From: Escherichia coli
GTDB lineage: Bacteria > Pseudomonadota > Gammaproteobacteria > Enterobacterales > Enterobacteriaceae
Strand: one strand, 5' to 3'
Length of the DNA: 64,000 nucleotides
Assembly: GCF_046105845.1 (NCBI RefSeq)
Contig: NZ_CP151004.1
Positions within the stretch are counted from its first letter, which is position 1. The number at the start of each line of letters is the position of its first letter. The notes beneath the pieces are model-generated. The model made no database searches, was not told where the DNA came from, and saw nothing but the letters and a program-made list of their open reading frames with translations. A program made the translations under genes and the position numbers. Below, piece after piece: positions 40,927-43,799 of this stretch.

Positions 40927-42552
40927 TTACACACACACTCCCCCCGTCGCCCGCAGCAATAAATCATTCTGGATCTGCTCTGACAACCGTACGCCGCCGC
41001 GCGTATCTAACATCACCTGACACCACGCCTGCGCCATTGGCGGAGAGGCATATTTCAACATTTGCGCACCGCAGCCCAGCAGGAATAGCTTATGAGTAAT
41101 CTCTCGCCCCAGTTCTTCAGCTGGCTTACGCAGCTGCTGCTGTAAACGACGAACCGCGCGATCAAAATAGCGATCCTGCCCTTTCACTTCCACAAATGCT
41201 TCCGACAATAAGTCGTATACACCCGCTTGCTTATTGAGAACACGCAGTACATCCAGGCACATAATATTACCGGAACCTTCCCAAATACTGTTTACCGGCA
41301 TCTCCCGGTAAAGCCGCGGCAGCTCGCTCTCCTCGCAATAACCAATGCCGCCCAGCACCTCCATCGCTTCGGCCACAAACGGCATACCTCGTTTGCAGAT
41401 CACAAATTTCACCGCAGGCGTAAATAAACGCGCCCACAGGGCTTCTTTAGCATCGGCACGCCGGTCCCACGCTCGCGCAAGACGAAACAGCAACGCCGTT
41501 TGCCCTTCAAGCTGAAGTGCCATGCGACTTAAGACATGACGCATAAGGGGCTGTTGGATCAATGGATTACCAAAAACATGGCGTTGATGGGCATGATAAA
41601 TCGCCAGCGAAAATGCACGGCGCATCATGGCATGGCTACCCAGGGCGCAATCAAAACGCGTCATCCCTCCCATTTTCAGGATCAGACGAGTTCCTTCCCC
41701 TTCCTGCCCTAACAACCAGCCAATGGCATCCTGAAACTCCACTTCGCAGCTGGCGTTAGAGCGATTACCCAGCTTATCTTTCAGCCGCTCGAGGCGAATC
41801 GCGTTGCGTTGCCCGTCAGGCAAAAAGCGCGGCACAAAAAAGCAGGACAAACCGCCCGTAGTCTGCGCCAGCACCAGATGCGCATCGCTTTGCGGCACCG
41901 AGAAAAACCATTTATGCCCCACCAGCCGATAAGAGCCATCTTCCAGGCGCTCTGCGCGGGTGGTGTTGCTCATGACATCGGAACCGCCCTGCTTTTCCGT
42001 CATTCCCATGCCAATCAACAAACCGCGTTTTTGCCCACCTGGCAATAAGTGAGAATCGTAGCGATCGCTCAACAGCGGCGTGGTCCAGTCCTGAAACGGC
42101 GTGGGTAACATCTGTAACAACAATGGCGTGGCGGCAAAGGTCATCGTTATCGGACATAACGACCCTGCCTCAACCTGTGCGTGCAACATAAAACGCGCCG
42201 CGCGCGCCACAAATGCGCCGGAGCGAGCGTCTTCTTCCCAGGCAAGATTGTGCACCCGATTGGTACATAGCGCCTGCATCAGCAAGTGCCAGGCGGGGTG
42301 AAAACGCACATCGTCCAGATGGCGTCCTTGCGCATCGTAGCGCAATAATTCAGGCGGATTCACATTCGCCAGCCGCCCCAGTTCAAGAGATTCAGCCGTT
42401 CCTAACTGCTGACCAATACTGGCTAGAAAATCGCTATCCCAGCCAGCACCTTCACGCGTTACCGCTTCACAGAGCGCGCCATCAGACAGGTATAAGTTAC
42501 TGTTATTTAATGGTATAGGTTGATTAAAAACGGTGTGAGTTTGCCAGTGCAC
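40927..42552 (-). CDS. aidB: acyl-CoA dehydrogenase-family adaptive-response protein AidB
   Basis: 541 aa from GTG start (VHWQTHTVFNQPIPLNNSNLY…); acyl-CoA dehydrogenase fold. Confidence 0.9.
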   Translation of the reverse strand: MHWQTHTVFNQPIPLNNSNLYLSDGALCEAVTREGAGWDSDFLASIGQQLGTAESLELGRLANVNPPELLRYDAQGRHLDDVRFHPAWHLLMQALCTNRVHNLAWEEDARSGAFVARAARFMLHAQVEAGSLCPITMTFAATPLLLQMLPTPFQDWTTPLLSDRYDSHLLPGGQKRGLLIGMGMTEKQGGSDVMSNTTRAERLEDGSYRLVGHKWFFSVPQSDAHLVLAQTTGGLSCFFVPRFLPDGQRNAIRLERLKDKLGNRSNASCEVEFQDAIGWLLGQEGEGTRLILKMGGMTRFDCALGSHAMMRRAFSLAIYHAHQRHVFGNPLIQQPLMRHVLSRMALQLEGQTALLFRLARAWDRRADAKEALWARLFTPAVKFVICKRGMPFVAEAMEVLGGIGYCEESELPRLYREMPVNSIWEGSGNIMCLDVLRVLNKQAGVYDLLSEAFVEVKGQDRYFDRAVRRLQQQLRKPAEELGREITHKLFLLGCGAQMLKYASPPMAQAWCQVMLDTRGGVRLSEQIQNDLLLRATGGVCV

Positions 42553-42571
42553 TGTGTCTCCCTCCATCAAT

Positions 42572-42599
42572 GGCAGTCACCATTAGTATGGTCACTGCC
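42572..42599. promoter_or_regulatory. inverted repeat GGCAGTCACCAT-tagt-ATGGTCACTGCC just upstream of aidB start
   Basis: 12-bp near-perfect palindrome (1 mismatch) about 20 bp upstream of aidB; could equally be the yjfC terminator. Confidence 0.4.
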
Positions 42600-42635
42600 A
42601 TGGATTCATGACAGAAAGAGATTGCTAAAACATTC

Positions 42636-43799
42636 TTATCCAGCAATGTAATGCGGAACGAAACGTGAGGTGTCTTTGGTGATCAGCGTGTTATCTTCAC
42701 GGATCCCCATTCCGCACGCTTCATCATCGACAATCCAGCTACCGATGAGTGTGTAGCTATCGCCAAATCGCGGCAGAGGTTGAAACGCCTGGTAGATCAT
42801 CGGTTCATCGGCGTAATCACCATCAGCGTGGTCAACGACGTTATTCTGACCGTCGAAAATGGTGACATTGCCGCCTTCGCGCGAGTAGATCGGTTTACGC
42901 ACATAGCTTTCGCCAGCGGCAATCTGCGGTTTTTCGCCCTCAAACCAGGATGCAAGAAGGTTAGGATGACCAGGGAAGAAGCGCCAAAGCAGTGGCATTA
43001 GCCCTTTATTACTCAAGATACTTTTCCATAACGGCTCCACCCATTGCTCGCGACGCTTGCGCAGCAGCGGACCGTTATCGTCACGCATCATCCACTCTAG
43101 CGGATACAGCTTAAATGCACGCTGGATGACATTATCATCAAGATCGGTCAGTACACCGCCGACGCCCAAACCGAGATCTTCAATGTAGATAAACCGCGAC
43201 TCCTGCCCTGCCTGCTGGGCGCAGTCCTGCAAATACAGCACGGTAGTCCTGTCTTCATCGGTGTCCTGACAGCAGCAAAAATAAAACGGTTCCCGACTGT
43301 AAAGCTCGCTAAAGCGTGAAATCAGGCGTTCCTGAATAGCATTGTACTGATCGGCATCACGCGGAATAATGCCGCTGCGCCGGGCATCCTCCAGCCACAG
43401 CCACTGGAAATAAGCCGACTCGTACAATGAAGTTGGCGTATCGGCGTTGTACTCCAGTAGCTTCACCGGCGCATTGCCACACCAGGCAAAATCCATCCGG
43501 CCATACAGCGAAGGATCTCGTGCGCGCCAGCTTTCGGCGATCACATCCCAGTACAATGGCGGGATCGCCAGTTGCGTCAGGATCTCTTCGTCTTTAACCG
43601 CGCGATCCACCACCTCAAGGCACATCTGATGCAGTTCCGCAGTCGGTTTTTCGATCTGCTCTTCAATCTGACGCAGGGTAAAGCGGTAAGCCCGACTCTC
43701 ATCCCAATAGATTTCATTGTCGATGATATGAAAGTCGAAACCGTTGTCAGCGGCGATCTGGTCCAGATCCCACCGTACAGGAACGTTGTGTCTCAGCAT
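42636..43799 (-). CDS. yjfC: glutathionylspermidine-synthase-like ATP-grasp protein
   Basis: Start trimmed to MLRHNVPVRWDLDQIAADNGFDF… (387 aa); overlaps yjfM stop. Confidence 0.85.
   Translation of the reverse strand: MLRHNVPVRWDLDQIAADNGFDFHIIDNEIYWDESRAYRFTLRQIEEQIEKPTAELHQMCLEVVDRAVKDEEILTQLAIPPLYWDVIAESWRARDPSLYGRMDFAWCGNAPVKLLEYNADTPTSLYESAYFQWLWLEDARRSGIIPRDADQYNAIQERLISRFSELYSREPFYFCCCQDTDEDRTTVLYLQDCAQQAGQESRFIYIEDLGLGVGGVLTDLDDNVIQRAFKLYPLEWMMRDDNGPLLRKRREQWVEPLWKSILSNKGLMPLLWRFFPGHPNLLASWFEGEKPQIAAGESYVRKPIYSREGGNVTIFDGQNNVVDHADGDYADEPMIYQAFQPLPRFGDSYTLIGSWIVDDEACGMGIREDNTLITKDTSRFVPHYIAG

What the first reader, a model, noticed from the sequence alone, without database searches (positions are those of the whole stretch)
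42572..42599. Near-perfect 12-bp inverted repeat immediately upstream of aidB
GGCAGTCACCAT-tagt-ATGGTCACTGCC lies about 20 bp upstream of the aidB GTG start and just downstream of the yjfC stop. It could be the yjfC terminator (no T-run, though) or a protein-binding site in the aidB leader.
Basis: seen in the sequence. Interest (0 to 1): 0.3.

Follow-up and report, generated by a model that had tools for sequence, protein, structure and literature searches.

The report
Hairpin enclosing the aidB promoter
The inverted repeat is real and lies over the E. coli aidB promoter; it probably forms, only in RNA read through from the upstream gene yjfC, the tip of a long hairpin that hides the aidB ribosome-binding site, so AidB is made only from its own regulated promoter.

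Summary
The repeat is confirmed and is longer than reported: 18-nt arms, 16/18 complementary, 4-nt loop, at 42566-42605. About 0.01 such repeats are expected per window. The genes are on the minus strand of an E. coli chromosome.

The repeat is not a leader element. The aidB -10 hexamer CATACT straddles the left arm and the loop, and the published 5' UTR starts inside the right arm. aidB's own mRNA therefore cannot form the hairpin. It is also not an intrinsic terminator, because there is no U tract.

In RNA entering from yjfC, the repeat caps a 65-nt hairpin (42557-42621). Its lower stem pairs UCUCUUUCUGUCA with the aidB Shine-Dalgarno region UGAUGGAGGGAGA. Predicted SD accessibility falls from 0.83 to 0.003, the lowest of 64 genes in the region.

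Every lineage with yjfC 83-84 nt upstream and no terminator (Escherichia, Salmonella, two Citrobacter groups, Phytobacter) shows such occlusion, weaker in the S. enterica locus L089. Most loci with a terminator or a divergent neighbour do not.

Best reading: a fold-back insulator of the IS10/IS50 type, probably coupled to Rho termination. This is inferred from computation only. An operator, a 3'-end stabiliser alone and a functionless quasi-palindrome remain possible.

The parts
42636..42638 (-). yjfC stop codon TAA
   Evidence: ORF list and sequence; RefSeq annotation of identical DNA.
42622..42634 (-). Ada box AATgttttaGCAA (A box AAT, B box GCAA) of the aidB promoter
   Evidence: Sequence. 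The A and B boxes of the ada, alkA and aidB promoters are described in PMC4437013. Position is about -42 to -56 from the start site. Found only in Escherichia; other genera have TTTGTGAyC there.
42609..42621 (-). Anti-Shine-Dalgarno tract UCUCUUUCUGUCA (5' strand of the lower stem, helix A); overlaps the -35 region of PaidB
   Evidence: Minimum-energy and centroid folds. RNAalifold consensus, columns 10-22 paired with 63-75. 88.9% of cells paired against 35-57% in slid controls.
42602..42608 (-). 7-nt internal loop UGAAUCC between the lower stem and the inverted repeat
   Evidence: Folds. These alignment columns overlap the columns of the Salmonella left arm UCAAUGG.
42588..42605 (-). Left (5') arm of the inverted repeat, ATCCATGGCAGTGACCAT (reported core 42588-42599)
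   Evidence: the repeat finder; own scan.
42585..42590 (-). aidB -10 hexamer CATACT, spanning the end of the left arm and the loop
   Evidence: Invariant in 13 aligned sequences and conserved as CCATACTTA across most Enterobacterales orthologues. PMC3141248 states that the first base of the aidB -10 element is C.
42566..42583 (-). Right (3') arm of the inverted repeat, ATGGTGACTGCCATTGAT (reported core 42572-42583)
   Evidence: the repeat finder.
42578..42580 (-). aidB transcription start: G42580 from the published 28-nt 5' UTR, or G42578 if the C of CATACT is -12
   Evidence: 5' UTR sequence in the supplement of PMC6028588; -12C statement in PMC3141248. Not mapped here.
42557..42569 (-). 3' strand of the lower stem, UGAUGGAGGGAGA, containing the aidB Shine-Dalgarno GGAGGG (42560-42565)
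   Evidence: Folds; SD-accessibility tests.
42550..42552 (-). aidB GTG start codon
   Evidence: Translation gives the 541-aa AidB; RefSeq annotation.
42477..42556 (-). C-rich, G-poor stretch immediately after the hairpin (candidate Rho-loading region on untranslated read-through RNA)
   Evidence: C/G ratio 1.91, the maximum of all 80-nt windows in aidB (median 0.71, 95th percentile 1.38). The function is an inference.

Best explanation
The inverted repeat is the upper part of a roughly 65-nt RNA hairpin (42621-42557, minus strand) that encloses the whole aidB core promoter. The hairpin can form only on transcripts that enter from yjfC. Its lower stem pairs a C/U tract upstream of the -10 element (UCUCUUUCUGUCA) with the aidB ribosome-binding region (UGAUGGAGGGAGA), and the repeat clamps these two strands together. 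Read-through RNA therefore carries an aidB cistron whose Shine-Dalgarno sequence is buried. Transcripts started at PaidB begin inside the 3' arm, lack the 5' half, and have a free Shine-Dalgarno sequence. AidB would thus be made only when its own Ada/sigma-S/Lrp-controlled promoter fires.

Two consequences are inferred but not shown. First, the untranslated aidB RNA exposes the C-rich, G-poor first 80 nt of the gene, Rho terminates there, and exonucleases trim back to the hairpin, which then serves as the stable 3' end of the yjf operon mRNA. Second, this would make the hairpin both a translation block and a 3'-end protector.

Shown here: the sequence anatomy, the predicted folds, their statistical rarity and their phylogenetic distribution. 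Taken from the literature: the start site, the -10 element and the Ada box. Inferred: that read-through occurs, that the hairpin forms in vivo, that translation is blocked, and that Rho is involved.
For: (1) The 101-nt yjfC-aidB junction RNA folds at -38.2 kcal/mol, z = -4.5, 0 of 200 shuffles as stable. It shows the repeat stacked on a 13-bp stem that covers the SD.
(2) The SD unpaired probability is 0.83 in the native 5' UTR and 0.003 when 75 nt of upstream sequence are added (1 of 200 shuffles of the upstream part as low). The energy needed to open the SD is 10.0 kcal/mol against 2.2-2.8. Complementing the C/U tract in silico lowers it to 3.3.
(3) Among 64 annotated genes in the same 64 kb, aidB has the lowest SD accessibility in its upstream context and one of the largest drops, 0.83 to 0.003.
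(4) In the 13 sequences (about 5 lineages: Escherichia, Salmonella, C. amalonaticus group, a second Citrobacter-like group, Phytobacter) where yjfC ends 83-84 nt upstream with no terminator, the median SD accessibility is 0.003. It is 0.119 in 14 loci preceded by an intrinsic terminator and 0.31 in 20 other loci, some of which have a divergent upstream gene. Mann-Whitney p = 1.8e-4, not corrected for phylogeny.
(5) RNAalifold independently recovers both stems. For the lower stem, 88.9% of cells are paired against 35-57% in slid controls.
(6) The E. coli lower stem uses 4 G.U pairs, so the sense strand folds 7-14 kcal/mol better than the antisense strand in Escherichia. That fits an RNA structure rather than a DNA palindrome.
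(7) Salmonella has an equally strong repeat around the -10 element (-22.7 kcal/mol, 0 of 500). Its left arm lies 5 nt further upstream in a nearly gap-free alignment and has a different sequence (ATGGCGC/GCGCCAT against ATGGCAG/CUGCCAU).
(8) Natural variant ECCHD184 changes an SD G to A, which turns a U.G pair into U-A, and changes a C to A, which repairs a mismatch in the repeat.
(9) No terminator-like site lies between yjfC and aidB.
(10) The 80 nt after the hairpin have the highest C/G ratio in aidB. This matches the arrangement reported for Rho-dependent 3' ends (PMC6061677).
Against: Nothing here shows that yjfC transcription reaches aidB, that the hairpin forms in cells, or that translation is blocked.

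Covariation is weak. Only 2 pairs of the lower stem have a double change, each in one sequence, and 16-24 of 500 shuffles reach the observed values. The RNAalifold covariation term is only -0.65 kcal/mol. The SD side is nearly invariant, so most support comes from C/U changes opposite G, which are also the commonest mutations.

The C/U tract coincides with the -35 region and the neighbourhood of the Ada box, so it is also constrained as promoter DNA. Any pyrimidine tract will pair with a purine-rich SD.

The lineages are few and related. Salmonella enterica itself is only modestly occluded (0.168; 27 of 200). Some terminator-preceded Citrobacter loci are strongly occluded (C. youngae 0.004; L108 0.007).

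The repeat itself is significant only in Escherichia, Salmonella and one Enterobacter-like lineage.

The Term-seq and start-site tables of Adams 2021 list nothing at this junction, and the supplements of Yan 2018 that are held have no entry for it. This is uninformative for poorly expressed genes.
Confidence: 0.45

Rival explanations
1. The hairpin is only the 3'-end structure of the yjfIJKLMC transcript: a U-less stem-loop that pauses RNA polymerase or blocks 3'-5' exonucleases after Rho-dependent termination. Its pairing with the aidB SD is incidental.
For: It is a stable stem-loop 14-36 nt after the yjfC stop with no U tract. The C-rich, G-poor stretch immediately downstream fits the architecture described by Dar and Sorek (PMC6061677).
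Against: A protective stem-loop could lie anywhere in the 83-nt spacer and would not need to include the SD. Yet the SD-pairing stem is the part best conserved across genera, while the repeat itself turns over. No 3' end is listed at this junction in Adams 2021. This reading is largely compatible with the best explanation rather than exclusive of it.
Confidence: 0.2
2. The repeat is a DNA operator. A dimeric (or paired-dimer) repressor binds the dyad centred on the -10 element and start site and blocks RNA polymerase at PaidB. Candidates are an unknown Escherichia-specific factor, Lrp or AidB itself.
For: There is near-perfect dyad symmetry centred on -10/+1, the classic position for repressors. 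The repeat core is invariant in the Escherichia sequences sampled. aidB is known to be repressed by Lrp and by AidB (reference titles and the statement that AidB represses its own gene; RefSeq product name).
Against: Neither half-site sequence nor spacing is kept in Salmonella or Citrobacter, even though the promoter aligns almost without gaps; the left arm is shifted 5 nt, which is half a helical turn. A 32-40-bp palindrome is long for one operator. The lower stem exists only with G.U pairs, that is, only in RNA. The repeat does not match the Lrp consensus, which I recalled from memory. From my recollection of Rippa 2010, which could not be read here, AidB binds the upstream A/T-rich UP-element region and not the -10 region. 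The arm motif is not enriched in the window (9 matches against 4.7 expected).
Confidence: 0.12
3. There is no function. The repeat is a quasi-palindrome produced and kept alike by template-switch mutation or drift within a promoter that is conserved for other reasons, and the anti-SD match is a coincidence between a pyrimidine-rich -35 region and a purine-rich SD.
For: Covariation statistics are weak. Promoter function alone would conserve this spacer. From general knowledge, template switching in quasi-palindromes can create apparent compensatory changes without selection. 12-nt repeats with one mismatch are common in this window (9 sites).
Against: The full repeat is expected 0.01 times per window. 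aidB is the extreme outlier of 64 genes for upstream-dependent SD burial. SD burial tracks genomic context, being strong where yjfC is adjacent without a terminator and at background elsewhere. Two genera carry strong but non-homologous repeats at the same place.
Confidence: 0.2

Closest known systems
Fold-back inhibition of read-through transcripts in IS10 and IS50 transposase genes (Davis, Simons and Kleckner 1985; Krebs and Reznikoff 1986; Schulz and Reznikoff 1991; recalled from memory, not read here)
   Same: An inverted repeat whose 5' arm lies upstream of the gene's own start site and whose 3' arm covers the ribosome-binding site. Transcripts from outside are folded and not translated, while transcripts from the gene's own promoter lack the 5' arm.
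   Different: Here the gene is an ordinary chromosomal stress gene placed directly after a co-directional operon, not a mobile element. The hairpin is longer and encloses the whole core promoter. Nothing has been tested experimentally.
IS200 left end: a terminator against impinging transcription plus an SD-sequestering stem-loop (PMC4513863)
   Same: It protects a gene from outside transcription and represses translation through an inverted repeat that buries the SD.
   Different: In IS200 the SD-burying stem-loop is inside the gene's own 5' UTR and acts on the native mRNA, and a true bidirectional intrinsic terminator is present. At aidB the native mRNA is predicted to be open and no intrinsic terminator exists.
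pyrC / pyrD control by start-site switching (Turnbough and co-workers; recalled from memory)
   Same: Whether a hairpin that blocks the ribosome-binding site can form depends on where the transcript starts.
   Different: In pyrC the alternative starts are 2-3 nt apart at one promoter and respond to CTP/GTP. Here the alternatives are the gene's promoter and an upstream operon.
[quoted passage not shown]
   Same: A stable stem-loop just after a stop codon, with no U tract and a C-rich, G-poor stretch immediately downstream.
   Different: No 3' end has been mapped here. This stem-loop also contains the next gene's promoter and SD, which is not part of that description.
Intrinsic (Rho-independent) terminator
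   Same: A G+C-containing stem-loop downstream of a gene.
   Different: No U tract follows it (AUUGAUGGAGGG), and the scan finds no terminator-like site.

Membership tests
Intrinsic terminator | Stable G+C-rich stem-loop just downstream of a stop codon | tested here: met
   A 14-bp core stem with a 4-nt loop, 36 nt after the yjfC TAA.
Intrinsic terminator | Run of U (at least 5 of 8) directly after the stem | tested here: not met
   The tail is UUGAUGGAGGG. There were 0 terminator-like sites in 42300-42900 on either strand.
Rho-dependent 3'-end protective stem-loop (Dar and Sorek) | Energetically stable stem-loop without a U tract at the end of a transcription unit | tested here: met
   -38.2 kcal/mol for the junction RNA, z = -4.5; no U tract.
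Rho-dependent 3'-end protective stem-loop (Dar and Sorek) | C-rich, G-poor (rut-like) sequence immediately downstream | tested here: met
   C/G = 1.91 in the first 80 nt after the hairpin, the maximum within aidB.
Rho-dependent 3'-end protective stem-loop (Dar and Sorek) | Mapped steady-state 3' end at the base of the stem, with read-through increased by bicyclomycin | tested here: inconclusive
   No 3' end for yjfC or 44142xx is listed in the Adams 2021 tables. The Dar and Sorek supplement is not held. The genes are poorly expressed, so absence says little.
Fold-back translational insulation (IS10/IS50 type) | The 5' arm lies upstream of the gene's own transcription start and the 3' arm covers the ribosome-binding site | tested here: met
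   The start is at 42580 or 42578, from the literature. The 5' strands are at 42588-42621 and the 3' strands at 42557-42583, including SD 42560-42565.
Fold-back translational insulation (IS10/IS50 type) | SD buried in read-through RNA but free in the native mRNA | tested here: met
   In silico only: 0.003 against 0.83 unpaired; opening cost 10.0 against 2.2-2.8 kcal/mol; the extreme of 64 genes.
Fold-back translational insulation (IS10/IS50 type) | Outside transcription actually enters, and its translation is lower than that of native mRNA | not testable with these tools
   This needs reporter fusions, toeprinting and RNA mapping. The only support here is the absence of a terminator.
Palindromic operator of a dimeric transcription factor | Dyad symmetry overlapping core promoter elements | tested here: met
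   The dyad is centred between -10 and +1.
Palindromic operator of a dimeric transcription factor | Half-site sequence and spacing conserved in orthologous promoters | tested here: not met
   The Salmonella left arm is shifted 5 nt and differs in sequence. The Citrobacter groups have no significant repeat.
Palindromic operator of a dimeric transcription factor | A cognate factor and further sites of the same motif in the genome | not testable with these tools
   Only the 64-kb window could be scanned. The arm motif gave 9 matches against 4.7 expected, and the repeat shows no Lrp-consensus match.
Dispersed repetitive palindromes (REP/BIME-like) | Many copies per genome | tested here: not met
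   One place per genome (median 1, highest 2) in 5424 E. coli genomes.
Any curated RNA family (Rfam 15) | Match at or near the gathering score | tested here: not met
   Only chance-level hits, best 15.6 bits against a gathering score of 45.

The most novel reading that the evidence does not exclude
aidB carries a conserved insulator embedded in its promoter. The hairpin has its 5' half upstream of the start site, so RNA arriving from the yjf operon is untranslatable for aidB, is terminated by Rho in the first 80 nt of the gene, and is trimmed back to the same hairpin. One structure would thus serve as translation block, polarity trigger and 3'-end protector. This design may be general for tightly regulated genes that sit directly behind co-directional operons without an intrinsic terminator.
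Probability: 0.35. Interest if true: 0.55.

Novelty: new member of a known kind. Interest (0 to 1): 0.4.

Why it matters
aidB is a classic model promoter for Ada, sigma-S, Lrp and AidB autoregulation, and all of that work concerns transcription initiation. If the hairpin works as proposed, a second, post-transcriptional layer keeps AidB off whenever the neighbouring yjf (PspA-like envelope-stress) operon is transcribed.

It would also explain three observations: why no terminator separates the two units, why the 83-84-nt spacer is length-invariant across four genera, and why the repeat turns over in sequence but persists in place.

More generally, it would move the fold-back trick of insertion sequences into ordinary chromosomal gene organisation. 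It would also give a simple, testable rule for finding such insulators: SD accessibility that collapses only when sequence upstream of the start site is included.

If the hairpin has no such role, the finding is just a palindrome inside a well-studied promoter.

Tried and rejected
- Primary aidB promoter papers (Landini 1994 PMC197013; Landini and Volkert 1995; Lacour 2003; Rippa 2010 PMC2981221; Hamill 2011) are not held. Start site, -10 element and Ada site therefore rest on secondary sources and on my memory of the abstracts.
- Full-text searches for the promoter sequence, for 'aidB promoter' with 'inverted repeat', and for aidB with 'hairpin' found nothing relevant.
- Experimental 5' and 3' end tables gave nothing at this junction. 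Adams 2021 has no entry. The Yan 2018 SMRT-Cappable-seq supplements have no entry. The supplements of Altuvia 2018 (RNase III) and Dar and Sorek 2018 are not held. So read-through, RNase III cleavage and 3' ends could not be checked.
- The sigma-70 and terminator scan found nothing, as expected for a weak sigma-S/Ada promoter.
- Rfam gave chance hits only.
- Lrp-consensus scan: no match in the repeat.
- Arm motif elsewhere in the window: not enriched.
- A mini-ORF ATGAATCCATGGCAGTGA overlapping the left arm was rejected. It has no SD, and its ATG is AGG in most E. coli and in E. albertii.
- My in-silico 'left arm complemented' mutant created new pairings and is not a clean test of the repeat's contribution.
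- Formal covariation for the repeat itself was not attempted across genera, because the arms are not positionally homologous.

Full report
**Observation.** The window is E. coli chromosome. Over the 601 bases 42300-42900 it is 99.7% identical to strain 7/2, and the yjfC-aidB spacer and flanks read back from MG1655 are identical to the window. yjfC (43814-42636) and aidB (42552-40927) lie on the minus strand. The reported repeat is present exactly as described, with 11/12 complementary. It extends to 18-nt arms at 42566-42605, 16/18 complementary with a 4-nt loop. On the coding strand it reads ATCCATGGCAGTGACCAT-ACTA-ATGGTGACTGCCATTGAT. In 200 dinucleotide shuffles of the window, a repeat of this quality is expected 0.01 times. 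The 14-nt version with one mismatch is expected 0.07 times. The bare 12-nt version is expected 1.1 times, and 9 are observed. The sequence is single-copy and almost invariant in 5424 complete E. coli genomes.

**Position relative to known aidB elements.** The hexamer CATACT (42590-42585) spans the end of the left arm and the loop. It is invariant in the 13-sequence alignment and is conserved as CCATACTTA in most Enterobacterales orthologues. PMC3141248 states that the aidB -10 element begins with C. The aidB 5' UTR used by Leistra et al. is GTGACTGCCATTGATGGAGGGAGACACA (28 nt), so the start is at G42580. Numbering the C as -12 gives G42578 instead. The Ada A and B boxes (AAT...GCAA; PMC4437013) are at 42634-42622, which is about -42 to -56. 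This agrees with my recollection of Landini and Volkert 1995, which placed the Ada footprint at -40 to -60. The repeat therefore sits on the core promoter, and the native aidB mRNA contains at most 9 nt of it. The native 5' UTR shows no significant structure (z = 0.06).

**What the repeat is part of.** RNA running from yjfC into aidB folds into one long hairpin: -38.2 kcal/mol for 101 nt, z = -4.5, with no shuffle as stable. In this hairpin the repeat is stacked, across a 7-nt internal loop, on a 13-bp stem. That stem pairs UCUCUUUCUGUCA (42621-42609) with UGAUGGAGGGAGA (42569-42557), which includes the aidB Shine-Dalgarno sequence. The mean unpaired probability of the SD is 0.83 in the native transcript and 0.003 once the 75 nt upstream of the start site are added. 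Only 1 of 200 shuffles of that upstream part is as low. The cost of opening the SD rises from 2.2-2.8 to 10.0 kcal/mol. Complementing the C/U tract in silico brings it back to 3.3. The same test on all 64 annotated genes of the homologous 64 kb of strain 7/2 puts aidB first. It has the lowest accessibility in upstream context and one of the largest drops.

**Comparative evidence.** I collected 48 distinct aidB upstream regions. They came from a genome scan, from E. coli variants, from contigs encoding Salmonella and Citrobacter AidB, and from a metagenome pattern scan.
- In Escherichia, Salmonella, two Citrobacter-like groups and Phytobacter, yjfC ends 83-84 nt upstream of aidB with no terminator, and the spacers align almost without gaps.
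- All of these fold into the same kind of hairpin. In the second Citrobacter-like group the outer stem is nearly perfect: UGUGA.UCUCCCUCCGUC pairs with GACGGAGGGAGA.CACA.
- Median SD accessibility is 0.003 in these 13 sequences. It is 0.119 in 14 loci where an intrinsic terminator precedes aidB, and 0.31 in 20 others, several of which have a divergently transcribed neighbour. Mann-Whitney p = 1.8e-4. The sequences are related, so this p-value overstates the evidence.
- There are exceptions in both directions: S. enterica at 0.168, C. youngae at 0.004.

**Structure and covariation.** RNAalifold recovers both stems without guidance. In the lower stem, 88.9% of cells are paired, against 35-57% when partners are slid by one to three columns. 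True double changes are few: 2 pairs, each in one sequence, with 16-24 of 500 shuffles reaching the observed values. In Escherichia the stem contains four G.U pairs, so the sense strand folds 7-14 kcal/mol better than the antisense strand. Relative to a perfect complement of the E. coli SD region, all four differences in the C/U tract are of the wobble-preserving kind. My rough estimate of the chance of this is 0.003-0.014, which is an inference and assumes a perfectly paired ancestor.

**The repeat itself turns over.** It is significantly strong only in three places: Escherichia (-22 to -28 kcal/mol, 0-1 of 500 shuffles), Salmonella (-22.7, 0 of 500; a second Salmonella-like sequence 18 of 500), and one Enterobacter-like lineage. 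Salmonella's left arm is 5 nt further from the -10 element and reads ATGGCGC/GCGCCAT where E. coli has ATGGCAG/CUGCCAU. Two genera thus keep a strong hairpin at the same place using different bases and different spacing. That is hard to reconcile with a conserved dimeric operator and easy to reconcile with a structural clamp. It is also what template-switch mutation in a quasi-palindrome could produce without selection.

**Mechanism proposed.** The architecture has the 5' half upstream of the gene's own start site and the 3' half covering the ribosome-binding site. As I recall them, this is the arrangement of the fold-back systems that protect the IS10 and IS50 transposase genes from outside transcription. 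IS200 uses related devices (PMC4513863). I therefore propose that the hairpin insulates aidB from yjf-operon transcription.

**A further inferred step.** No intrinsic terminator is present. The 80 nt after the hairpin have the highest C/G ratio of the whole gene, 1.91 against a median of 0.71. Dar and Sorek found that Rho-dependent 3' ends lie just after stable U-less stem-loops, with rut sites immediately downstream (PMC6061677). Untranslated read-through RNA would therefore be expected to load Rho and be trimmed back to the hairpin.

**What remains open.** No experiment or dataset available here shows read-through, the fold, or its effect. The C/U tract overlaps the -35 region, so promoter constraints confound the conservation argument. 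An Escherichia-specific operator cannot be excluded. The repeat does not resemble the Lrp consensus, which I recalled from memory, and the arm motif is not enriched locally, but no genome-wide regulon scan was possible. No Rfam family matches, and no paper in the held library mentions a hairpin at this promoter.

**Verdict.**
- The most likely function is a fold-back insulator, with confidence about 0.45. It would be a new member of a known kind.
- Interest is moderate. The case is well defined, cheap to test and sits in a classic promoter, but it rests on prediction alone.

Noticed in passing
window 42622-42634 (minus strand), compared with L002-L011, L089, L091 and L095-L116 at the same alignment columns: Outside Escherichia, nearly all orthologous promoters carry a conserved TTTGTGAyC motif about 30 nt upstream of the -10 element. 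E. coli and E. albertii have TTTAGCAAT there instead, which is the Ada B box. Ada control of aidB may therefore be an Escherichia innovation. TGTGA resembles a CRP half-site, and it also pairs with the CACA just before the start codon in the predicted hairpin.
   Followed up: partly
window 42622-42650 (minus strand): A second small inverted repeat, ATTGCT-N15-AGCAAT, spans the yjfC stop codon and the Ada box and appears as a separate hairpin in the folds. It may be the 'inverted repeat structure' that Landini and Volkert 1995 mentioned for the Ada-binding region (recalled from their abstract).
   Followed up: no
A2 alignment; The yjfC-aidB spacer is 83-84 nt in Escherichia, Salmonella, two Citrobacter-like groups and Phytobacter, and it aligns with a single 1-nt gap despite extensive substitution. 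This indicates a strong constraint on length.
   Followed up: partly
L004, L009, L101, L111, L112 (Enterobacter-like loci), leader between -10 and SD: These loci have a local leader hairpin, CCTTCA...TGAAGG, that would cover part of the SD in the native mRNA itself. They have a divergent upstream gene and no upstream-dependent SD burial. This looks like a different solution at the same gene.
   Followed up: no
strain 7/2 loci L117/L118 (homologous to the window): ulaG and ytfH starts: In the 64-gene control, ulaG (SD accessibility 0.78 falling to 0.19, 0 of 100 shuffles) and ytfH (0.46 falling to 0.135, 1 of 100) also show upstream-dependent SD burial, far weaker than at aidB.
   Followed up: no
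L090 (GCA_900450065.1, UGED01000005.1), positions about 1360-1500: An E. coli assembly has a 1-nt deletion in the right arm (GGTGATGCC instead of GGTGACTGCC). Its yjfC is split into four ORFs and its aidB is called as 557 aa. This is probably assembly indel error rather than biology.
   Followed up: no
window 42607-42609 (minus strand): The window strain and K-12 read TCATGAA, which creates a 5-codon mini-ORF ATG AAT CCA TGG CAG TGA over the left arm. Seven of the 11 aligned Escherichia sequences read TCAGGAA or TCGGGAA and so lack the ATG. No SD precedes it.
   Followed up: partly
MG1655 coordinate 4415796, minus strand (near the aidB 3' end; about window 41031): The Adams 2021 supplement lists an RNA 3' end antisense to aidB, in the file I took to be the bicyclomycin comparison. 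It is unrelated to the repeat.
   Followed up: no
aidB 5' UTR, window 42553-42580: According to the literature, CsrA represses an aidB 5' UTR-GFP reporter, with a predicted site in the SD region (AUGGAGGGAGA) (PMC6028588). The native leader is therefore itself a post-transcriptional target.
   Followed up: no
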